From the NCBI GenBank assembly GCA_000004985.1, contig GG738908.1: a stretch of DNA of 64,000 bases; one strand, 5' to 3'. The DNA is from Naegleria gruberi. Its lineage: Eukaryota. The translations under genes and the position numbers were made by a program. Positions 10,466 to 63,300 of the stretch are shown one piece after another (position 1 is the stretch's first letter; each line of letters begins with the position of its first letter). The notes under the pieces were generated by a model, which saw only the letters and a list, made by a program, of their open reading frames with translations, ran no database searches and was not told where the DNA came from.

Positions 10466-13400
10466 TTATTGTCTCTTATATTTAATAATAAATTCAGGAT
10501 AACATTGACATTTATCATAGACAATGAATTCTCTATATGAATTAGTTGAAGTATTTGATTGACCAATAACACTATCATAAACTCTATTGTTACTTCCTGA
10601 AATTTCAGGTGGTCTTCTCTGATTATTCATCACTTGTTTTGTGAAATGAATTTGTCTTCCCATTACAACTCTACATAATAATAGAGTATATTCATTGGAA
10701 TGATCAGGTGTACAATATTGATCACTCTTTGAACAATATTCTGCAAAATAAATACCTGCTCCAAATAATCCATTTAAATTTGCAACTCTTTCATCAAATC
10801 CATGTTCTGCAATTGTATTCACAAATTCAGGTTTTGTTCCATGCCATAAATATTTTTCATTCATATTAGAATTTAATCCAATTGTTTTCATCCATTCAAA
10901 TGATTTTGATGTTTTTGAAATATTTTCAGTTTGAACTTGAAGTGAATTAATTGAATCTTGATATGAAATTAAATGATTCATTCTTGATTTGAATGAAGTG
11001 AAAAGTGTTGAATTTTCAATTCTTGAAACACTTGAAACAATTAATTTAGAATAATTAATTCTTGATAATTGATCTCTTCCAGATCCAAGTGTTGCAGAAT
11101 TACACGATACATTCATAATTTCTTGCATTGTATCTTTTAAATATTGTGTAACATCAACAGTGTAATATCTTTTCGAATAAGTTTGGAATGTGTTTCTTTT
11201 CCAATAACTTGGAAGTGAAATTGTTAATTGTTTGGATTTTGATTCTTTAATTTCCTTTTCCATCTTCTCAATTTCAATTTCTTTTTGTTTCAAATTTTGT
11301 AATTTCTTTGAAATTTCTTCACTTTTCTTTGACTTTGAATTTGAAAATTGTTTCTTTTCCTTTTCTAGATTTAAAATTTCAATTTTCAAATTTTCATGAT
11401 TTTTTTTCATTTTCAATTCAAATTCATTCAATTGATTCTGATAATCTTTCAATTCCTTTGATTGATTTTCCATTAATTGAACATGTTTCTGAATTTTAAC
11501 TTCATCTAATAATGTTCCTTTCAAAAAGAATTCATTTGCAAGTGCATCAGATGCAAATGGTCTCAAATTTACATCTGAATTCAAACATTCATCACATAAA
11601 TTATTCAATGATTTGAATTGTTTCAATTCTTGTTCTTTCATACAATTTTTAATTGTTTTACCAAATGCAAACATGTCAGATTTAAATGTTGCTGATGTTT
11701 TTCCATTCACTAATTCAGGTGCTAAATAATCCAATGTACCAGCAATTCCACTTGTTCTTGTGAATAAATTCATTGTTCTACTTGTTATATCTAAACTAAT
11801 ATCAAAATCACCTAAAATAATTGGATAATATTCTGTGATCATNNNNNNNNNNNNNNNNNNNNNNNNNNNNNNNNNNNNNNNNNNNNNNNNNNNNNNNNNN
11901 NNNNNNNNNNNNNNNNNNNNNNNNNNNNNNNNNNNNNNNNNNNNNNNNNNNNNNNNNNNNNNNNNNNNNNNNNNNNNNNNNNNNNNNNNNNNNNNNNNNN
12001 NNNNNNNNNNNNNNNNNNNNNNNNNNNNNNNNNNNNNNNNNNNNNNNNNNNNNNNNNNNNNNNNNNNNNNNNNNNNNNNNNNNNNNNNNNNNNNNNNNNN
12101 NNNNNNNNNNNNNNNNNNNNNNNNNNNNNNNNNNNNNNNNNNNNNNNNNNNNNNNNNNNNNNNNNNNNNNNNNNNNNNNNNNNNNNNNNNNNNNNNNNNN
12201 NNNNNNNNNNNNNNNNNNNNNNNNNNNNNNNNNNNNNNNNNNNNNNNNNNNNNNNNNNNNNNNNNNNNNNNNNNNNNNNNNNNNNNNNNNNNNNNNNNNN
12301 NNNNNNNNNNNNNNNNNNNNNNNNNNNNNNNNNNNNNNNNNNNNNNNNNNNNNNNTGTTATCACTTTCAGTGTAAATTCCTTCAATTTCAATAATATTTG
12401 AATGTTTTAACTTGTTTGTAATTNTCAATTCCTTTTCTAAACCTTCAATTGATTTCTTATCTTTTAAATTATATTGTTTAATTATATGTTTTTTATCATT
12501 TAAATCAATTCCAATAAAAACATTATGATTTCCATTCCAATTTTGAATTGGTTTAATTTCTTTAAACATTTCAGGTGTCATTTCATTAATATTTAAATTA
12601 GATAATAAATCACTTGCCATGTTTGATTTAATATCAAATCCAATTGTCGTTAATTGAAGAAATTTCATTTTAATTTCATTTAATTTTTGAATATTTTCCT
12701 TCAAATTAGATTTTAATTCAATTAAATTAAATTCTTTAATTTGAATTTCATCTTTAATATCATTCATTTCATCTTCATTATTAACATGTTTCAATTCATC
12801 TTTTAATCCTTCAATATCTAGATTTAACATATTTAAATTTCTTGTAATTCTTGTTTTTTGTCTTTGAATGGTTTTAAATTGTTCAGATAAATTTGAATAA
12901 TTATTCATAATATTTATAATATTTTGTAACATTTCATATTTTTCAATTATATATGGAATTGTTTCTTGAATTAATAATTTACAATTTAATTCTTGTTTTT
13001 GATAATAATTATATAATTCTAAAATATTCATTTGATCATTGTCTGAAATTAATACTTTACAATTTGATAATATATTATTTAAATATAATTCTTCTTGTTC
13101 TGATAATTCCATTGCTTTTTGTAAATTATTTGAAAATTGTGTCAAATCAATTTCATTACAATAATTGATAGAGTTTACAATATTTGATAATTGTTTTGTA
13201 ACTTGTTGTAATATTGTTTTAGTTTCATTTCCAAATTTATTATGAGTTGGAACTATATTAATACTGTTTATATTCTTAATAGATTGTTCACTCATTTCAA
13301 TACTGTCAAATAATTCTTGTTTAATAAATTGAGAATTAAATTCATTAAATAATTCTAATTTTTCACTTAATACTTCTAAATAAGATTGTAATTTAAATAA

Positions 13401-14954
13401 ATATTTTTGATTATTAATAAATTCCAATATAGTTCTAATATTATTCATTAAATTATTAATAGTTAATAAATGTTCATTATTTTCAATATTATAATTATTA
13501 CTTGTTAATCTTTCAATTAAATTACAACAATTATTTAAATTATTACAAATTGTTAAATATTCATCTTGAAATTCTTTCTTAATTTGAATAGAAGAAGAAA
13601 ATGATTGAATCGATTCAAATTGTTTTTCAACTTTTCTTCTATTATTATCAACTTGTTGGTTGAGTGAACATAATTTTGAAAATGTTTCAGATGTGATTAT
13701 GAATGATTGTTTTTTCTCTAATTCTTTTCTTTCTCTTTCTATTTTTAGTAAACATTCTTTTTCAATTCTTTCCTTTTCAATTCTTTCCATTTCTAATTTT
13801 TTAATTCTTTCTCTTTCTAATCTTTCCATTTCTAGTTGGTTAAATTTTAATTGTTCCGATTGTTCTTTTAATAGTTGTTGTTCTTTTTCCATGTCACTTT
13901 TAATTGTTTGAATATTAATTCCATTCACTGACCATGTGTAATTTATGTTAATATTTGGATGTTGAAGTAATTGTTTAACAATTTCTAAATGCCCATTTTG
14001 GCAAGCAGTGTATAATGGTGGCTAATATATAAAAATAAAAATTAAATTAAATATTAAATACTTACAAACTAATATTATAAATATAAAAATTAAATTAAAT
14101 ATTAAAATACTTACTTTCTAATATTATAAATAAAATTAAATTAAATATTAAAATACTTACACGCTAATATTATAAATATAAATATAAATTAAATATTAAA
14201 ATACTTACACCCAAATTAACATCAATTGTTTTACATGATAATAATAATTTAACAATTTCTAAATAACCATTTTGGCAAGCAGTGTATAATGGTGTCTAAT
14301 ATTATAAATATAAAATTAAATTAAATATTAAAATACTTACATCCTAATATTATAAATAATATTAAATTAAATATTAAAATACTTACAAACTAATATTATA
14401 AATATAAAATTAAATTAAATATTAAAATACTTACATCCTAATATTATAAATATAAACTAAAATTAAATATTAAAATACTTACAACCTAATATTATAAATA
14501 ATATTAAATTAAATATTAAATTACTTACATCCTAATATTATAAATAATATTAAATTAAATATTAAAATACTTACAAACTAATATTATAAATATAAAATTA
14601 AATTAAATATTAAAATACTTACAACCTAATATTATAAATAATATTAAATTAAATATTAAAATACTTACATCCTAATATTATAAATAATATTAAATTAAAT
14701 ATTAAAATACTTACAAACTAATATTATAAATATAAATTAAATATTAAAATACTTACACCCAAATTAACATCAATTGTTTTACATGATAATAATAATTTAA
14801 CAATTTCTAAATGTCCTTTTTGGCAAGCAATAATTAACATGGTACAACCTTCTGATTTATTATTAACATCTTGTTCATTAAAATAATTATTAAATTCATC
14901 AATTTTGCCGTCTCTCGCAGCATCAAGCGCCTTCTGAAAATCTCGTGTGGCCAT
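10466..14954 (-). CDS. Ankyrin-repeat – long coiled-coil – protein-kinase – PARP-catalytic-domain protein (copy A; interrupted by an assembly gap)
   Basis: Exon 1 (14954..14757) encodes MATRDF..TMLIIACQKGHLEIVKLLLSCKTIDVNLG (ankyrin) and ends at a GTAAGT donor. A 735-bp intron (14756..14022) is built from tandem 47-bp units. Exon 2 starts at 14021 (PPLYTACQNGHLEIVKQLL) and runs through about 430 aa of coiled coil (LEMERLERERIKKLEMERIEKERIEKE...) into a kinase domain: IKQYNLKDKKSIEGLEKEL..KLKHSNIIEIEGIY [N gap 11843..12355] ..ILGDFDIS..GTLDYLAPE. More coiled coil follows, then a PARP catalytic domain (LWHGTKPEFVNTIAEHGFDE..GLFGAGIYFAEYCSKSDQYC..YREFIVYD) with the H-Y-E triad intact. Stop is at 10466. 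Confidence 0.8.
11843..12355. other. Assembly gap (513 N) inside the kinase domain of PARP-gene copy A
   Basis: Run of N characters. The ORFs made of X residues (11835..12401, and parts of 10466..12391 and 11808..13928) are artefacts of this gap. Confidence 0.99.
14022..14756 (-). repeat. Tandem array of about 14 intron-like 46-47-bp units inside intron 1 of PARP-gene copy A, with an embedded 87-nt exon-like ankyrin duplicate (14209..14295)
   Basis: On the gene strand each unit reads GTAAGTATTTTAATATTTAAT(A/T)TT..TATAATATTAG followed by 3 nt. On the plus strand this shows as ACTTAC recurring every 46-47 bp at 14068..14756. The segment 14295..14209 is flanked by ATTAG| and |GTAAGT and encodes an in-frame TPLYTACQNGYLEIVKLLLSCKTIDVNLG (29 codons). 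Confidence 0.85.
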
Positions 14955-17838: not shown

Positions 17839-18858
17839 TTAGAAAATTCTGAATTGTAAATTGGTGCTATTAGTCTTTTTGTTGTTGTTATTATTATTAT
17901 TGTTATTGTTATTGTTGTTTGGCAATGGTACGAATTTCATAACAATAGCAAAGATGCAACCACCCAAGATGGCCAAAGCAACTAACAAACACAAAACAGC
18001 ACAACACTTATCAGTTTGAATTCTCCTCATGAAACTGGTAATTTCCTTTTGAGCTCTTTTCACATTGCTTCCGAGAGCATCCATTTCTTCATCAATTCTC
18101 CTCAATTGGTCTCTTTGTTGTCTCAGTAAATCAGCAGAATCAGTTGCCAAAGCAATAGTTTCCTCTGATTTCTTATTCAAACGATCGATAATGTCCAAAC
18201 ATTCCTTCTGAGTTGAAAATACTTCAGAAAATAATTCCTTTTCAATTTCATCGTGCCTTTGACGTTGTTCCTGTGTCAGATTGGCATTTCCCTTGTACAT
18301 ATTTGTCACATCAGCATCACTGTTTCTCTTAACTTCCACAACATCATCTTCTTCAATGGCATTGGATGAATTCTTTCCTTCATTCAATTTGTTTGCAAAT
18401 GTAAAGAAACCTTCCTTTTTACGAACACCACCACTATTTGTTGCTGATGATGATGAATTTGATGTTAAATTGGAATTTGTTGATTCTAAAGCAGAGTTAT
18501 TTGATGATTTACCATCATTCAACCCCTTTGCTTTAGTTTCAATAAATGTTTTTGATTGTTTGTAACTTGCTCTCAACTTGGCAATAATTTCCTTGTGTTT
18601 CTTCTTGGTATCGGATACTTGATTTTCAACGGATGGATCATTCTTTGTCAAGTTATTAATCTTGTTATATAATTTCCTACATTTTTCCAATAATTCTTCA
18701 ATAGTTTCGGATAGTGTGGAAATTTGTGAGGAAATAAAATTTGGATCCGATTGATTGGTAATGTTTAGACGACGAAGAGTGGTGATGTTTTCTTCAATCT
18801 TTGACTCGACACTTTCCAACTCGTGTGTGTAGGTTGAAAGTTTTTCGAGACTGCTCAT
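17839..18858 (-). CDS. Syntaxin-like Q-SNARE (t-SNARE) with a C-terminal TM anchor and a poly-Asn luminal tail
   Basis: 339-aa single-exon ORF. N-terminal helical region, a SNARE heptad motif (IALATDSADLLRQQRDQLRRIDEEMDALGSNVKRAQKEITSFMRRIQ), a TM segment (CCAVLCLLVALAILGGCIFAIVM), then LPNNNNNNNNNNNNNKK. Confidence 0.7.
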   Translation of the reverse strand: MSSLEKLSTYTHELESVESKIEENITTLRRLNITNQSDPNFISSQISTLSETIEELLEKCRKLYNKINNLTKNDPSVENQVSDTKKKHKEIIAKLRASYKQSKTFIETKAKGLNDGKSSNNSALESTNSNLTSNSSSSATNSGGVRKKEGFFTFANKLNEGKNSSNAIEEDDVVEVKRNSDADVTNMYKGNANLTQEQRQRHDEIEKELFSEVFSTQKECLDIIDRLNKKSEETIALATDSADLLRQQRDQLRRIDEEMDALGSNVKRAQKEITSFMRRIQTDKCCAVLCLLVALAILGGCIFAIVMKFVPLPNNNNNNNNNNNNNKKTNSTNLQFRIF

Positions 18859-34340: not shown

Positions 34341-37070
34341 ATGGCAGGAGATTTTCGGAAGGCGTTTTATGCTGCGGAAAAAGGCAAAATTGATGAATTT
34401 AATAATTATTTTAATGAACAAGACGTTAATAAATCACAGAGAGGTGTTACCATGTTATATATTGCTTGCCAAAATGGACATTTAGAAATTGTTAAATTAT
34501 TATTATCATGTAAAACAATTGATGTTAATTTGAGTGTAAGTATTTTAATATTTAATTTAATTTTATATTTATAATATTAGACTGTAAGTATTTCAATGTT
34601 TAATATTTTTTATATTTAAAATATACATTAGACTGTAAGTATTTGATATTTAATATTATTTTATATTTTTAATATTAGTATGTAAGTATTTTAATATTTA
34701 ATATTTTTTATATTTTTAATATTAGTATGTAAGTATTTAATATTTAATATTATTTTATATTTATAATATTAGACCGTAAGTAATTAATATTTAATTTGAT
34801 ATTATTTATGTTTATAATATTAGTTTGTAAGTATTTAATTTTATTTATATTAATAATATTAGATGGTAAGTATTTTAATATTTAATATTATTTTATTTTT
34901 AATATTAGACACCATTATACATTGCGTGCCACTATGGACATTTAGAAATTGTTAAAGAATTACTTCAACATCCAAATATTGAAATAGATAGCGAATTGTC
35001 AGTGAATGGAATTAATATTCAAACAATTAAAAGTGACATGGAAAAGGAACAACAAATATTACAAGAACAAATAGAACAAAAAAAGTTGAAACAACTAGAA
35101 ATGGAAAGATTAGAAAGAAAAAGAATTACAAAATTAGAAATGGAAAGAATTGAAAAAGAACGTTTATTAAAAATAGAAAGAGAAAGAAAAGAATTTGAGA
35201 AAAAGCAACCATTCATAATCACATCTGAAACACTTTCAAAATTATGTTCACTCAACCAACAAGTAGATAATAATAGAAGAAAAGTTGAAAAACAATTTGA
35301 ATCAATTCAATCATTTTCTTCTTCTATTCAAATTGAGAAAGAATTTCAAGATGAATATTTAAGAATTTGTGATAATTTAAATAATTGTTGTAATTTAATT
35401 GAAAAATTAACAAGTAATAATTATAATATTGAAAATAATGAACATTTGTCAACTATTAATAATTTAATGAATAATATTAGAACTATATTGGAATTTATTA
35501 ATAATCAAAAATATTTATTTAAATTACAATCTTATTCAGAAGTATTAAATGAAAAATTAGAATTATTTAATGAATTTAATTCTCAATTTATTAAACAAGA
35601 ATTATTTGACAATATTGAAATGAGTGAACAATCTATTAAGAATATAAAAAGTATTAATATTGTTCCAACTCATAATAAATTTGGAAATGAAACTAAAACA
35701 ATATTACAACAAGTTACAAAACAATTATCAAATATTGTAAACTCTATCAATAATTGTAATGAAATTGATTTGACACAATTTTCAAATAATTTACAAAAAG
35801 CAATGGAATTATCAGAACAAGAAGAATTATATTTAAATAATATATTGTCAAATTGTAAAATATTAATTTCAGACAATGATCAAATGAATATTTTACAATT
35901 ATATAATTATTATCAAAAACAAGAATTAAATTGTAAATTATTAATTCAAGAAACAATTCCATATATAATTGAAAAATATGAAATGTTACAAAATATTATA
36001 AATATTATGAATAATTATTCAAATTTATCTGAACAATTTAAAACTATTCAAAGACAAAAAACAAGAATTNAAGAAATTTAATTGTGANNNNNNNNNNNNN
36101 NNNNNNNNNNNNNNNNNNNNNNNNNNNNNNNNNNNNNCATGAAAATTTGAAAATTGAAATTTTAAATCTAGAAAAGGAAAAGAAACAATTTTCAAATTCA
36201 AAGTCAAAGAAAAGTGAAGAAATTTCAAAGAAATTACAAAATTTGAAACAAAAAGAAATTGAAATTGAGAAGATGGAAAAGGAAATTAAAGAATCAAAAT
36301 CCAAACAATTAACAATTTCACTTCCAAGTTATTGGAAAAGAAACACATTCCAAACTTATTCGAAAAGATATTACATTATTGATGTTACACAATATTTAAA
36401 AGATACAATGCAAGAAATTATGAATGTATCGTGTAATTCTGCAACACTTGGATCTGGAAGAGATCAATTATTAAGAATTAATTATTCTAAATTAATTGTT
36501 TCAAGTGTTTCAAGAATTGAAAATTCAACACTTTTCACTTCATTCAAATCAAGAATGAATCATTTAATTTCATATCAAGATTCAATTAATTCACTTCAAG
36601 TTCAAACTGAAAATATTTCAAAAACATCAAAAACATTTGAATGGATGAAAACAATTGGATTAAATTCTAATATGAATGAAAAATATTTATGGCATGGAAC
36701 AAAACCTGAATTTGTGAATACAATTGCAGAACATGGATTTGATGAAAGAGTTGCAAATTTAAATGGATTATTTGGAGCAGGTATTTATTTTGCAGAATAT
36801 TGTTCAAAGAGTGATCAATATTGTACACCTGATCATTCAAATGAATATACTCTTTTATTATGTAGAGTTGTAATGGGAAGACAAATTCATTTCACAAAAC
36901 AAGTGATGAATAATCAGAGAAGACCACCTGAAATTTCAGGAAGTAATAATAGAGTTTATGATAGTGTTATTGGTCAATCAAATACTTCAACTAATTCATA
37001 TAGAGAATTCATTGTCTATGATAAATGTCAATGTTATCCTGAATTTATTATTAAATACAAGAGACAATAA
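34341..37070 (+). CDS. Ankyrin-repeat – coiled-coil – (kinase region missing or in gap) – PARP-catalytic-domain protein (copy B, inverted paralog of 10466..14954)
   Basis: Exon 1 (34341..34535): MAGDFRKAFYAAEKGKIDEFNNYFNEQDVN..TMLYIACQNGHLEIVKLLLSCKTIDVNLS, then GTAAGT. A 373-bp intron (34536..34908) is made of eight 47-bp intron-like units. Exon 2 from 34909: TPLYIACHYGHLEIVKELLQHPNIEID, then coiled coil that is near-identical to copy A. After ..TIQRQKTRI comes a 50-N gap (36088..36137), then HENLKIEILNLEKEKK.. and the PARP domain, which differs from copy A at only a few residues (e.g. SKTFEWMK against SKSFEWMK). Stop at 37070. About 80 bp of 3' flank are also shared with copy A. Confidence 0.8.
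34536..34908 (+). repeat. Tandem array of eight 46-47-bp intron-like units forming intron 1 of PARP-gene copy B
   Basis: Units read GTAAGTATTT(T/C/G)A(A/T)(T/G)TTTAATATT(A/T)TTTTATATTT(A/T)TAATATTAG, each followed by exactly 3 nt (ACT, ACT, TAT, TAT, ACC, TTT, ATG). The first exon-2 codon is ACA. Confidence 0.85.
36088..36137. other. Assembly gap (50 N) at the position where copy A carries its kinase domain
   Basis: Run of N characters. The adjacent base at 36070 is also N. Whether copy B lacks the roughly 1.5-kb kinase region cannot be decided from this sequence. Confidence 0.99.
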
Positions 37071-60352: not shown

Positions 60353-63300
60353 ATGTCATCACCACAACATGCAACCCTGCTTCTCGCCTTTTTNNNNNNN
60401 NNNNNNNNNNNNNNNNNNNNNNNNNNNNNNNNNNNNNNNNNNNNNNNNNNNNNNNNNNNNNNNNNNNNNNNNNNNNNNNNNNNNNNNNNNNNNNNNNNNN
60501 NNNNNNNNNNNNNNNNNNNNNNNNNNNNNNNNNNNNNNNNNNNNNNNNNNNNNNNNNNNNNNNNNNNNNNNNNNNNNNNNNNNNNNNNNNNNNNNNNNNN
60601 NNNNNNNNNNNNNNNNNNNNNNNNNNNNNNNNNNNNNNNNNNNNNNNNNNNNNNNNNNNNNNNNNNNNNNNNNNNNNNNNNNNNNNNNNNNNNNNNNNNN
60701 NNNNNNNNNNNNNNNNNNNNNNNNNNNNNNNNNNNNNNNNNNNNNNNNNNNNNNNNNNNNNNNNNNNNNNNNNNNNNNNNNNNNNNNNNNNNNNNNNNNN
60801 NNNNNNNNNNNNNNNNNNNNNNNNNNNNNNNNNNNNNNNNNNNNNNNNNNNNNNNNNNNNNNNNNNNNNNNNNNNNNNNNNNNNNNNNNNNNNNNNNNNN
60901 NNNNNNNNNNNNNNNNNNNNNNNNNNNNNNNNNNNNNNNNNNNNNNNNNNNNNNNNNNNNNNNNNNNNNNNNNNNNNNNNNNNNNNNNNNNNNNNNNNNN
61001 NNNNNNNNNNNNNNNNNNNNNNNNNNNNNNNNNNNNNNNNNNNNNNNNNNNNNNNNNNNNNNNNNNNNNNNNNNNNNNNNNNNNNNNNNNNNNNNNNNNN
61101 NNNNNNNNNNNNNNNNNNNNNNNNNNNNNNNNNNTATTGATGGTATCAATTCTTTCACAATTACTGGCTCTACATTTGCAAACAATTCCAAATTACACAT
61201 GACAACTGTTTTCAGCTCTACCTTGAGAGGTTTGACTTTTGAGGGAAATGAAAATGTTCTTTCTGCGAAAGGAATTGGTTCTTTTACATTGGAGCATTCA
61301 AATTTTACTCGCAATGGTAATCCAATTTATATTTCAGGAAATCAATTGACAAATCAATTTAGAAAAATTAGTTTTTGTTTATTTGAGGACAATTGGTCAA
61401 CCAGCAATGGTCTTATAACATTGGAACAGTTTCCCACACATGTGGAATTTAACAATTTCAGAAATAATTGGGCAGTGAATGGAGGAATAATTTATGCAAC
61501 TAGTTCCATAATTACTTTGGATAAAAATCAGTTTGTGGATACTTATGCAAGATTCATTGAAGGTTGTTTAGTTGATAATTGTGGAAATGGAGGAATTGCC
61601 TATATTTCTAATACTATTTTGTACATGTCCAATCTCATTATTCAAAATACTCAAGCAATTAGAGGAGGAATTGTTTATTCTGAGGGAAATTCTCGAATTC
61701 AAACCCAAAATTGTGATATTTCAGATAATATTGCTTCTTTGGCTGGTAATTTATTTTACTTTGGAGATGTTATTGATTTTAATGCCCAAAATTATTCGAA
61801 ATCTGACCTGAGTTCGAGGAAAACAACTCGAGCACTTTGGAGAACGGAATCTAGTCAACCTTACGATAATCAACGAATTGCCATCCAACCCGGGCAAACA
61901 ATACAATTGGATTTTGAGTATTTTGACATGTTTGACAACAGATTCAATAGAACAAATTCTGCTCCAATTATTAAGGCAAGTGATTCATCCAACATTCTTG
62001 TATCCCTCGTTTCAATTGATCCACTTTCCAATACTGACTTTAAATTCTTCTTGCAAGTGTCAGAAACTTCAAAAAGCTCAAATATTTCAGTATATCTCCC
62101 ATTCCATGACTTTACATTTGAGATTGATATTGATATTATTGGATGCCCTTTTGATTATGGTTTATCACCACTTTTAAATTCACACTACAACGTGTGTGTC
62201 TATAGAGGTTATATTATAATTGTATTCTCCTCTATTGGCATTGCAATCATTCTACTGGTTGCAATTTATTTATTGATCTATGTTGTTAAGAGATTACTCA
62301 AATTGAGAAAGAAGGAAATGACTGAAAAGGAAATTGCACAAAAGATTATTGATAAGAATTTTGTTTTTTCTATCAATACTGATAATGAGCACACTCCATT
62401 ATTATCAAAACTGGAAGTTGCCAAGATTAGTAATATCTTAATTCCAATTGAGGATATTGAAATCATCAAAAGAATTGGAGAAGGAGCTAATGGTACTGTA
62501 TACTTAGCTAAATGGCAAGGAAATCGTGTAGCTCTAAAAAGTTTAAAATTCGAAAGGGATAGCACTGACTTTGAAAATGAAGCATCTCTCCTTAATAATT
62601 TGAGACATCCTTCTATTGTGAGATTTTATGGAATTGTAGTGTCTTCTTCAGTTAAATACATGGTTACAGAGTTTGTGGAAAATGGAAGTTTGGATGCAGC
62701 CATTCATAATTCCAAAATTGGAAAGAAGAAACTTGATTTACAAACAAAATTACAAATTTTGAGAGGAATTGCAAATGGAATGAACTATCTTCATAATTTG
62801 AAAACTCCATGTCTTCACAGAGATTTGAAATGTCAAAATATTCTTCTCAATTCCAACATGGAACCAAAGGTTACAGATTTTGGATTGTCAAAATTGACTT
62901 TAAATTCAATGACATTGACTTGCAATATTGGAACAGCTCTTTACATGGTAAGTTTTCAAATTTAAGAGAGTTAAACCGAGTCAATCATTGTAAAGTCTCC
63001 TGAATTATTTGGAAGTGGTTACAAAATTTCATACAAATTGGACGTTTACAGTTTCTCCATCATCATGTACGAATTATTCTTTGAGGAAACTCCATTCTTT
63101 AGCTCATCAGCCAAGATGAGAAAATTTATCATTTCATCCACTGAACAATCACCAGAAGATGATCATGATACAATGAATTTTGGTTTTGCAATTCCAGTAA
63201 AAGTTTCGAAAGGAGAACGGCCAATGCTTCCCTGGACTAATGATGAGGAATGTGAAATGTGGATTAAGGAATTTATAGAACCCTATGAAGGAGGAGGAGG

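What the first reader, a model, noticed from the sequence alone, without database searches (positions are those of the whole stretch)
10466..14954. Unusual domain fusion: ankyrin repeats + long coiled coil + protein kinase + PARP catalytic domain with an intact H-Y-E triad
The C-terminal domain (LWHGTKPEF..HGFDE..GLFGAGIYFAEYCSKSDQYC..LLLCRVVMG..YREFIVYD) carries the PARP signature His (HGT), the Tyr in GIYFA, and the catalytic Glu in YREFIVYD. That predicts ADP-ribosyltransferase activity. The same polypeptide carries a protein-kinase domain (K..IEG..KLKHSNII, then the gap, then GDFDIS..GTLDYLAPE). The kinase has DFD instead of DFG, and its catalytic loop is hidden in the gap. Two ankyrin-like 29-residue repeats and about 600 aa of coiled coil complete the protein. 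I do not recognise a kinase–PARP fusion as a described family. It could couple phosphorylation and ADP-ribosylation signalling within one scaffold.
Basis: partly seen in the sequence, partly recalled or inferred. Interest (0 to 1): 0.75.

Follow-up and report, generated by a model that had tools for sequence, protein, structure and literature searches.

The report
Ankyrin–kinase–PARP fusion gene in Naegleria
A real but unannotated Naegleria gruberi gene encodes one protein with ankyrin repeats, a long helical region, a protein kinase and a PARP-type ADP-ribosyltransferase, and it belongs to a kinase–PARP family found in several protist lineages that I could not find described in the papers searched.

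Summary
The gene is on the minus strand, with its ATG at 14954 and its stop at 10466-10468. It encodes three ankyrin repeats, about 430 aa of helices, a kinase N-lobe, an assembly gap, a kinase C-lobe, a roughly 100-aa two-helix linker and a PARP domain. The H-Y-E triad is intact (Pfam PARP E 1.5e-23; closest sequence and fold match is tankyrase).

The kinase C-lobe and the PARP domain share one uninterrupted 458-codon ORF. The gap hides about 76 aa. A paralogue, P0001 (84% identical), shows that these carry an intact HCDIKPEN catalytic loop.

The organism is Naegleria gruberi, a heterolobosean and not an amoebozoan.

The fusion is not a one-off. 48 relatives carry Pkinase plus PARP. They come from Naegleria fowleri and N. 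lovaniensis, a kinetoplastid, cryptophytes, Ancyromonas and an amoebozoan, several of them from transcriptomes. DFD in place of DFG is a family signature. N-terminal domains vary (Ank, WD40, LRR, SNase).

I found no paper describing the architecture. Public annotation of this locus is a chimeric fragment.

Enzyme activities and any kinase–PARP coupling are inferred, not shown.

Side finding: both introns are tandem arrays of 36-48-nt mini-introns separated by exactly 3 nt.

Verdict: a new variant of a known kind, of moderate interest.

The parts
14757..14954 (-). Exon 1. It holds the start codon, an N-terminal helix and ankyrin repeat 1, and ends ...DVNLG before a GTAAGT donor.
   Evidence: Translation and splice sites. 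The Pfam Ank stretch covers aa 36-64. Paralogue P0001 starts the same way.
14296..14756 (-). Intron array 1. Ten tandem mini-introns of 39-45 nt, each GTAAGTA...ATATTAG, separated by nine spacers of exactly 3 nt (ttt gat gtt ttt gat gtt gat ttt gat).
   Evidence: Public model P0192 translates the last eight spacers as DVFDVDFD.
14209..14295 (-). Exon 2. Ankyrin repeat 2 (TPLYTACQNGYLEIVKLLLSCKTIDVNLG).
   Evidence: It matches P0192 at 100%.
14022..14208 (-). Intron array 2. Four tandem mini-introns with 3-nt spacers cgt, aaa and ttt.
   Evidence: P0192 reads the spacers as RKF.
13914..14021 (-). Start of exon 3. Ankyrin repeat 3 and its C-terminal cap.
   Evidence: Pfam Ank_3 covers aa 97-122. 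The AF2 model has helices at residues 2-9 and 12-19.
12582..13913 (-). All-helical region of about 430 aa: one 67-residue helix followed by nine helices of 23-47 residues. It is conserved in relatives that lack the ankyrin repeats.
   Evidence: AF2 pLDDT 76. No significant fold match in the PDB. It is 25-34% identical to P0003 and to N. fowleri P0051.
12356..12581 (-). Kinase N-lobe. It has a degenerate glycine loop (NWNGNHNV, 12519-12542), the beta-3 lysine in HIIK (12477-12479) and the alpha-C glutamate (12429-12431).
   Evidence: Pfam Pkinase profile positions 16-72, E 3.7e-4. The family alignment supports the motif assignments. Coordinates.
11843..12355 (.). Assembly gap of 513 N. It hides about 76 aa (about 228 nt), including the kinase catalytic loop.
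   Evidence: The missing stretch in paralogue P0001 is 76 aa and contains HCDIKPEN.
11528..11842 (-). Kinase C-lobe. It has DFD (11801-11809), APE (11714-11722), the alpha-F aspartate and the subdomain XI arginine.
   Evidence: Pfam Pkinase profile positions 137-195, E 2.6e-5. Searches support the motifs and coordinates.
11228..11527 (-). Inter-domain linker of two long helices with coiled-coil-like, K/E-rich composition.
   Evidence: AF2 helices 113-166 and 171-204. Composition and heptad scan.
10469..11227 (-). PARP catalytic domain with its conserved N-terminal extension (PSYW...VDVT...RIEN). H is at 10841-10843, Y at 10748-10750, the SKSDQY motif at 10715-10732 and E at 10529-10531.
   Evidence: Pfam PF00644 E 1.5e-23. 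Best PDB sequence match is tankyrase-1, E 2.7e-17. Foldseek match to tankyrase, E 8e-14. H, Y and E are invariant in alignments A1 and A2.
10466..10468 (-). Stop codon (TAA).
   Evidence: Relatives end at the same position.
34341..37070 (+). Second, head-to-head copy of the same gene. It has one ankyrin exon, an array of eight mini-introns (34536-34908), the helical region, a 50-N gap (36088-36137) where about 1.15 kb including the kinase would lie, and then the linker and PARP domain.
   Evidence: tblastn and blastn. Sequence.

Best explanation
**What it is.** This is a genuine Naegleria gruberi protein-coding gene of about 1,180-1,195 aa that the public annotation misses. It is a member of a conserved, multi-lineage protist family whose core is a helical region, a protein kinase, a two-helix linker and a C-terminal PARP domain, always in that order. 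A variable N-terminal domain precedes the core. Here that domain is three ankyrin repeats.

**Proposed working (inferred, not shown).**
- The ankyrin repeats recruit a partner or target.
- The helical regions drive self-association.
- The PARP domain has a complete NAD+-site signature (H, Y, E, plus the SKSDQY serine and tyrosine) and transfers ADP-ribose from NAD+ to itself or to recruited proteins.
- The kinase is of a distinctive family type, with an HCD catalytic loop, DFD and a degenerate glycine loop that ends in a conserved His. It either phosphorylates the same targets or gates the PARP through dimerisation or autophosphorylation.

**Shown.** Gene structure, domain homology, conservation of the catalytic residues, and recurrence of the architecture.

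**Inferred.** Enzymatic activity, poly- versus mono-ADP-ribosylation, and any functional coupling.
For: - The ORFs are far longer than chance allows, and the splice sites keep the frame.
- Pfam supports Ank and PARP strongly, and the two kinase halves match complementary parts of the Pkinase profile.
- Paralogue P0001 covers Ank, the helical region, a complete kinase (Pkinase 104 bits; HCDIKPEN, DFD, SPE) and the linker. It overlaps both sides of the gap at 84-89% identity.
- The H-Y-E triad aligns to tankyrase-1, and the predicted fold matches tankyrase and PARP12.
- 48 of 49 kinase-bearing relatives have both Pkinase and PARP. Nine that were tested individually pass both Pfam cut-offs.
- Members come from N. 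fowleri, N. lovaniensis, Apiculatamorpha, Hanusia, Hemiselmis, Ancyromonas and Nolandella, several of them as single transcripts.
- In the 49-member alignment the kinase residues H, N, DFD, PE, D and R and the PARP residues H, Y and E are conserved in at least 90% of members.
- Comparing the two window copies, Ka/Ks is 0.24 over the linker plus PARP and 0.55 over the helical region, with no stop codons.
Against: - The catalytic loop of this particular gene is hidden in the gap. The nominal gap length of 513 does not preserve the reading frame, although gap sizes are only estimates.
- Neither kinase half alone reaches Pfam's cut-off.
- Paralogue P0001 appears to be frameshifted before its PARP, so some copies may be decaying.
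- The glycine loop is degenerate, and a few family members lack the catalytic Asp.
- There is no expression or biochemical evidence.
- The AF2 model of the C-terminal half is only moderate (pLDDT 60).
- H-Y-E does not guarantee activity or polymer formation.
Confidence: 0.7

Rival explanations
1. The kinase domain is not a phosphotransferase. It is a nucleotide-binding or dimerisation switch that controls the C-terminal effector, as the pseudokinase does in RNase L or the kinase does in IRE1. ADP-ribosylation would then be the only catalytic output.
For: - The glycine loop is degenerate across the whole family, and DFD replaces DFG.
- Clear pseudokinase members keep an intact PARP: P0006 and P0055 (HGN) and P0177 (HSS).
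- The order of Ank, kinase-like domain and effector resembles RNase L. This comparison comes from my own knowledge and was not tested here.
Against: - Most members, including the closest paralogue, keep the beta-3 Lys, alpha-C Glu, catalytic Asp, Asn and the Mg-binding Asp. That conservation is unexpected for a pure scaffold.
Confidence: 0.25
2. The window gene is a non-functional or mis-assembled copy. On this reading the scaffold join across the gap links halves of different paralogues, or the gap hides disabling mutations. The architecture would then hold for the family but not for this locus.
For: - Both window copies have their assembly gap exactly over the kinase region.
- The 3' halves are 98% identical while the 5' halves are only 84-89% identical.
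- P0001 is frameshifted.
- GC3 is 0.10-0.14, against about 0.30 in neighbouring genes.
- No public protein model covers the PARP half.
Against: - Both flanks of the gap are on the same strand, in the same order, and carry complementary kinase halves.
- The long ORFs are intact in both copies, and Ka/Ks is below 1 in the helical and PARP parts.
- Gaps placed over near-identical repeats are the expected outcome of assembling recent duplicates.
Confidence: 0.15
3. The gene is a recently acquired foreign element, for example from a giant virus, and not a native signalling gene. This would explain its extreme AT-richness.
For: - GC is 19-26% and GC3 is 0.10-0.14, against 34-38% and 0.26-0.36 in ten neighbouring ORFs.
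- The gene is multi-copy.
Against: - A scan of IMG/VR with family patterns found no viral relative.
- Homologues exist in three Naegleria species and in distant protists.
- The gene has spliceosomal introns.
- The N/K/I/E-rich helical composition accounts for part of the AT bias.
Confidence: 0.05

Closest known systems
Tankyrase (PARP5a/b, PARP clade 4)
   Same: - Ankyrin repeats sit N-terminal to a C-terminal PARP domain with H-Y-E.
- It is the closest PDB match by sequence (E 2.7e-17) and by fold (E 8e-14, TM about 0.7 on the target).
- The GIYFAE..SKS.QY NAD+-site motif is nearly identical.
- A self-association module lies between the ankyrin repeats and the PARP domain.
   Different: - This gene has only three ankyrin repeats, where tankyrase has five ARC clusters.
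- It has no SAM domain.
- The tankyrase zinc-binding insertion is absent (gaps in the alignment).
- A kinase domain is inserted.
Unplaced Naegleria gruberi PARP-like proteins 72525 and 80603 of Citarelli et al. 2010 (PMC2964712)
   Same: - They are from the same organism.
- The PARP domain sits at the extreme C-terminus.
- H-Y-E is retained.
- They fall outside the six defined PARP clades.
- They are probably the same PARP subfamily as paralogues P0003, P0005 and P0006.
   Different: - They were described as short proteins with no recognisable N-terminal domains.
- No kinase or ankyrin fusion was reported.
- I did not map those protein IDs onto my hits.
Clade 3 mono-ADP-ribosyltransferase PARPs (PARP12, PARP14, PARP15)
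   Same: - They are the second-best PDB matches, with E values of 5.6e-16 to 6e-9.
- From my own knowledge, they share a P.W...V.V...RIEN-type N-terminal extension of the catalytic domain.
- They are also fused to variable accessory domains.
   Different: - From my own knowledge, those enzymes carry H-Y-I/L/Y triads.
- This family has an invariant Glu.
RNase L / IRE1 (sensor, kinase-like domain and effector enzyme)
   Same: The logic resembles these proteins only in how it might work: an N-terminal repeat sensor (ankyrin in RNase L), then a kinase or pseudokinase domain, then a C-terminal catalytic effector on one chain.
   Different: - The effector here is a PARP, not a KEN RNase.
- No sequence relationship beyond the generic kinase fold was found.
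- No evidence shows that dimerisation activates it.

Membership tests
PARP catalytic domain superfamily (Pfam PF00644) | Profile match above the curated cut-off | tested here: met
   83.8 bits against a cut-off of 26.7, E 1.5e-23, profile positions 21-198 of 199.
PARP catalytic domain superfamily (Pfam PF00644) | H-Y-E catalytic and NAD+-binding triad | tested here: met
   LWHGT, GIYFA and YREFIVY align with tankyrase-1 HGS, GIYFAE and YAEYVIY. The three residues are invariant in A1 and A2 and conserved in at least 90% of the 49 members of A4.
PARP catalytic domain superfamily (Pfam PF00644) | PARP/ART fold | tested here: met
   The AF2 model (pLDDT 60 overall, 70-83 in the core strands) gives Foldseek E 8e-14 against tankyrase-2 and PARP12. 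The model is only moderate in quality.
PARP catalytic domain superfamily (Pfam PF00644) | NAD+-dependent ADP-ribosyl transfer, and whether it is poly or mono | not testable with these tools
   This needs an enzyme assay.
Tankyrase (PARP clade 4) | Long ankyrin array organised in five ARCs | tested here: not met
   Only three ankyrin repeats are present.
Tankyrase (PARP clade 4) | SAM polymerisation domain before the PARP domain | tested here: not met
   There is no SAM hit in Pfam at E of 1 or below. True tankyrases in the hit list carry PF00536 and PF07647.
Tankyrase (PARP clade 4) | Zinc-binding motif inside the catalytic domain | tested here: not met
   The tankyrase segment CPTHKDRSCYICHR aligns to gaps in the query.
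Eukaryotic protein kinase (Pfam PF00069) | Profile match above the curated cut-off | tested here: inconclusive
   The window halves score 20.4 and 24.2 bits, each below the cut-off of 31.7, on complementary parts of the profile. Paralogue P0001 scores 104 bits, and the composite with its 76-aa filler scores 117 bits.
Eukaryotic protein kinase (Pfam PF00069) | Catalytic loop HRD..KxxN | not testable with these tools
   It is hidden in the gap 11843-12355. In paralogue P0001 and N. fowleri P0051 it reads HCDIKPEN.
Eukaryotic protein kinase (Pfam PF00069) | Glycine-rich loop GxGxxG | tested here: not met
   The loop reads NWNGNHNV. The family consensus is [GS][GS][RTN]H.
Eukaryotic protein kinase (Pfam PF00069) | Beta-3 Lys, alpha-C Glu, Mg-binding Asp of DFG, and APE | tested here: met
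   HIIK, EKEL, DFD (the Asp is kept and Gly is replaced by Asp) and APE are all present.
Kinase–PARP fusion family (unnamed; defined here) | Helical region, DFD-type kinase, helical linker and H-Y-E PARP, in that order on one chain | tested here: met
   The window gene aligns end to end with P0051, P0053, P0054 and P0055. 48 of 49 relatives carry both domains. The kinase C-lobe and PARP lie in one ORF.

The most novel reading that the evidence does not exclude
The conserved core of helical region, DFD-kinase, linker and H-Y-E PARP carries swappable repeat or sensor-type N-termini (Ank, WD40, LRR, SNase, DUF4116). It could be a previously unrecognised, ancient eukaryotic sensor–effector family. 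In that reading, ligand- or partner-induced oligomerisation switches on kinase-gated ADP-ribosylation, following RNase L/IRE1-like logic, possibly in stress or anti-pathogen defence. Three observations fit a fast-evolving conflict gene: rapid paralogue turnover in Naegleria, an excess of non-synonymous changes in the ankyrin exon (21 non-synonymous to 3 synonymous), and codon-by-codon length variation of the ankyrin loops through tandem mini-intron and 3-nt microexon arrays.
Probability: 0.15. Interest if true: 0.75.

Novelty: new variant of a known kind. Interest (0 to 1): 0.55.

Why it matters
PARP catalytic domains are known to combine with many accessory domains. A protein kinase on the same chain is not among the architectures in the two evolutionary surveys I read (PMC2964712, PMC4245714).

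Here the combination proves to be a conserved family with its own kinase signature, spread over several deep eukaryotic lineages. That offers a natural system in which two major post-translational modifications are physically coupled.

It also shows that the Naegleria 'orphan' H-Y-E PARPs noted in 2010 are part of a larger multi-domain family, and that the public annotation of this locus is wrong.

If the two activities are coupled, this would be a new signalling logic for ADP-ribosylation. If they are not, it is still a useful correction to the annotation and to the domain-architecture record.

Tried and rejected
- **Fetching other loci.** I tried to fetch the genomic loci of P0001 and P0006, and of a window neighbour, by exact protein look-up. 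None is on record. I therefore could not check whether a PARP follows the frameshift in P0001.
- **Viral origin.** A scan of IMG/VR with family patterns found no relative, so this idea was rejected.
- **Known fold for the helical region.** Foldseek against the PDB gave nothing below E 0.07, only generic long-helix proteins.
- **Tankyrase membership.** Rejected, because there is no SAM domain, no zinc motif and only three ankyrin repeats.
- **Third AT-rich patch at 60-62 kb.** This is an artefact of N bases counted in the denominator. The region holds an unrelated receptor-like kinase.
- **Functional link to neighbouring genes.** The neighbours are an MFS transporter, a beta-helix protein, a G8-domain protein, an RGS protein, a choline transporter, a CAP/EGF protein and a P450. 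Nothing is related.
- **Literature.** Searches for kinase–PARP fusions, for the Naegleria kinome with PARP, and for tandem introns with microexons found nothing relevant. The ADP-ribosyltransferase review I tried to open by a remembered PMC id was not held. These searches cover open-access text only, so absence is not proof.


Full report
**Observation.** The region 10466-14954 holds a minus-strand eukaryotic gene. Translating the minus strand gives an ATG at 14954 and two exons that each end ...DVNLG before a GTAAGT donor. A third, long exon runs to a TAA at 10466-10468 and is interrupted by a 513-N assembly gap (11843-12355) and one N at 12424. The two ORF pieces of the third exon are 555 and 458 codons long. 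The longest ORF in 200 shuffles of the same very AT-rich DNA was 146 codons. The coding call is therefore secure.

**Domains in the window.**
- Pfam finds three ankyrin stretches (Ank_2 E 3.5e-21).
- It finds a C-terminal PARP catalytic domain (PF00644, 83.8 bits against a cut-off of 26.7, E 1.5e-23).
- The kinase is split by the gap. The N-side matches Pkinase profile positions 16-72 (20.4 bits). The C-side matches positions 137-195 (24.2 bits).
- Each half is below the cut-off, but they are complementary, co-linear and on the same strand.
- The kinase C-lobe, a helical linker of about 100 aa and the PARP domain lie in one uninterrupted ORF (11842-10469). That part of the fusion does not depend on any gene model.

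**Organism and paralogues.** The best database hits are Naegleria gruberi proteins.
- P0001 (788 aa, on another scaffold) is 84-89% identical to both sides of the gap. It has Ank, the helical region, a complete kinase (Pkinase 104 bits) and the linker.
- P0001 supplies the 76 residues missing here, including HCDIKPEN. Inserting them between the window halves gives 116.6 bits.
- P0001 ends in a tail that matches another reading frame of this window gene. Its PARP is therefore probably lost from the model through a frameshift. I could not fetch that locus.
- The window holds a second, head-to-head copy at 34341-37070. It is 98% identical over the linker, the PARP domain and about 80 nt of the 3' flank, and 84-89% identical upstream. 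Its own gap sits exactly where the kinase should be.
- Other N. gruberi paralogues are helical–PARP without a kinase (P0003), lectin–PARP (P0005) and helical–pseudokinase–PARP (P0006).

**PARP domain.** The closest solved structures by sequence are tankyrase-1 and tankyrase-2 (E 2.7e-17), then PARP12, PARP15, PARP14 and PARP1.
- In the tankyrase alignment, the His of LWHGT, the Tyr of GIYFA and the Glu of YREFIVY fall on the HGS, GIYFAE and YAEYVIY motifs.
- The SKSDQY serine/tyrosine motif is conserved.
- The tankyrase zinc-binding insertion is absent.
- H, Y and E are invariant in the family alignments and conserved in at least 90% of the 49 kinase-bearing members.
- An AF2 model of the C-terminal 458 aa is of moderate quality (pLDDT 60). 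It matches tankyrase and PARP12 catalytic domains at Foldseek E of about 1e-13.
- The triad supports competence for ADP-ribosyl transfer. It does not settle poly versus mono.

**Helical parts.** An AF2 model of exon 3 up to the gap (pLDDT 76) is all-helical. It has one 67-residue helix and then nine helices of 23-47 residues, followed by the beta-strands and alpha-C helix of the kinase N-lobe. It has no significant fold match. The linker between kinase and PARP is two long helices. 'About 600 aa of coiled coil' is therefore better put as about 430 plus 100 aa of helical, partly coiled-coil-like sequence. The N-terminal helical region is conserved in relatives that have no ankyrin repeats (25-34% identity), so it belongs to the family core.

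**The fusion is a family.** A profile of the segment from kinase C-lobe through linker to PARP was searched against 1.84 billion representative proteins. It gave 774 hits at E of 1e-30 or better. Among the best 150, many match from the kinase C-lobe through to the PARP C-terminus in one stretch.
- Nine that were tested individually pass both the Pkinase and the PARP Pfam cut-offs.
- Of 49 kinase-bearing relatives, 48 have both domains. The exception is the truncated P0001.
- Named sources are:
  - N. fowleri (XP_044563143.1, which has SNase, kinase and PARP);
  - N. lovaniensis;
  - the kinetoplastid Apiculatamorpha;
  - the cryptophytes Hanusia and Hemiselmis;
  - Ancyromonas;
  - the amoebozoan Nolandella;
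  - a partial choanoflagellate sequence.
- Several of these come from transcriptome assemblies, meaning single transcripts.
- N-terminal domains vary: Ank, WD40, LRR, SNase and DUF4116.

**Kinase signature.** The kinase domains of the family share the following:
- an HCD(I/V)KPxN catalytic loop;
- DFD in place of DFG, in at least 90% of members;
- a VxLK beta-3 lysine;
- the alpha-C glutamate;
- a degenerate glycine loop that ends in a conserved His.

A few members have lost the catalytic Asp (P0006, P0055, P0177).

**What is known.**
- Citarelli et al. 2010 listed two N. gruberi PARP-like proteins as unplaced. They described them as short, with PARP at the C-terminus, no known N-terminal domain and H-Y-E retained (PMC2964712).
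- Perina et al. 2014 mention Ank plus PARP combinations in N. gruberi (PMC4245714).
- Neither paper mentions a kinase. My other searches found no description of a kinase–PARP architecture. These searches cover open-access text only.
- The public model for this locus, P0192, is a chimera. It joins the upstream ORF (18858-18217) to part of this gene and stops early.
- No public protein matches either PARP half exactly.

**Mechanism (inferred).** The most economical reading has four parts.
- There is a targeting or sensing N-terminus.
- Helical regions act as self-association modules.
- Two catalytic modules are held in a fixed order.
- I rate a real, intact gene with a catalytically competent PARP as likely. 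I rate an active kinase as more likely than not.

The specific way the two modules are coupled is open. The main rival is that the kinase domain acts as a regulatory switch and not as an enzyme. Mis-assembly or pseudogene status of this particular copy cannot be excluded until the gap is closed. Ka/Ks between the two copies argues against decay: it is 0.24 for the linker plus PARP and 0.55 for the helical region, and both ORFs are intact.

**Side findings.**
- Both introns of copy 1, and the single intron of copy 2, are tandem arrays of complete mini-introns. There are 22 units of 36-48 nt, all GTAAGTA...TAG.
- All 19 spacers between units are exactly 3 nt, even where the units themselves differ by indels.
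- Public models translate the spacers, as DVFDVDFD and RKF in P0192. The NRD and DYRDY segments at the same positions in P0001 may have the same origin.
- Including the spacers raises the Ank_2 score of copy 1 from 85.5 to 108.8 bits. It leaves copy 2 essentially unchanged, 66.1 against 64.9 bits.
- The gene's GC3 is 0.10-0.14, against 0.26-0.36 in ten neighbouring ORFs.
- No viral relative was found.

**Verdict.** The gene is a new variant of a known kind, a PARP with a kinase on the same chain. It belongs to a widespread family that I did not find described, and it is of moderate interest.

Noticed in passing
window 14022-14208 and 14296-14756 (minus strand); 34536-34908 (plus strand): The introns are tandem arrays of 4, 10 and 8 complete mini-introns (36-48 nt, all GTAAGTA...TAG). 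All 19 spacers between them are exactly 3 nt, even where the units differ by indels. Public models P0192, and probably P0001, translate the spacers as 3-nt microexons lying in the loops between ankyrin repeats. I found no paper describing this arrangement. RNA evidence is needed.
   Followed up: partly
window 34341-37070 (plus strand): There is a second, head-to-head copy of the whole gene 19 kb away. It is 98% identical in the 3' half, including about 80 nt of the 3' flank, and 84-89% identical in the 5' half, which suggests gene conversion. Its 50-N gap (36088-36137) sits where about 1.15 kb including the kinase would be. Both copies therefore failed to assemble over the same segment.
   Followed up: partly
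window 10466-14954 and 34341-37070, compared with neighbouring ORFs: Both gene copies are far more AT-rich than their surroundings. GC is 19-26% and GC3 is 0.10-0.14, against GC of 34-38% and GC3 of 0.26-0.36 in ten neighbouring ORFs. This is unexplained. No viral relatives were found.
   Followed up: partly
window 14757-14954 compared with 34341-34535: Between the two copies, the first ankyrin exon has 21 non-synonymous and 3 synonymous differences (Ka/Ks about 1.7). The helical region gives 0.55 and the linker plus PARP gives 0.24. The numbers are small, but they hint at relaxed or diversifying selection on the ankyrin surface.
   Followed up: partly
window 18217-18858 (minus strand) joined to 13632-14672: The public N. 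gruberi model P0192 (391 aa) is chimeric. It fuses an unrelated upstream ORF, across about 3.5 kb, to the microexons and ankyrin exons of this gene. It skips the ATG exon and stops before the kinase. The full-length gene is unannotated.
   Followed up: yes
paralogue P0001 (not in the window); equivalent to window position about 11330: P0001 ends in ...QRKTKKFQRNYKI, which matches another reading frame of this window gene. A 1- or 2-nt indel in an A-rich run therefore cuts off its PARP domain. This is either a sequencing error or a decaying paralogue.
   Followed up: partly
window 13758-13834: A 39-nt tandem repeat (two copies, 86% matching) lies inside the coding sequence and encodes the ERLERERIKKLEMERIEKERIEKE stretch at the start of the helical region. 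It is also present in copy 2 (35072-35193).
   Followed up: no
window about 61135-62965 (plus strand): An unrelated receptor-like protein has beta-helix-like repeats, a transmembrane segment and a canonical kinase (GEGANG, VALK, HRDLKCQN, DFG), and is interrupted by a 741-N gap. It gives a useful contrast within the same genome to the DFD-type kinase. The apparent low GC here was an artefact of the N bases.
   Followed up: partly
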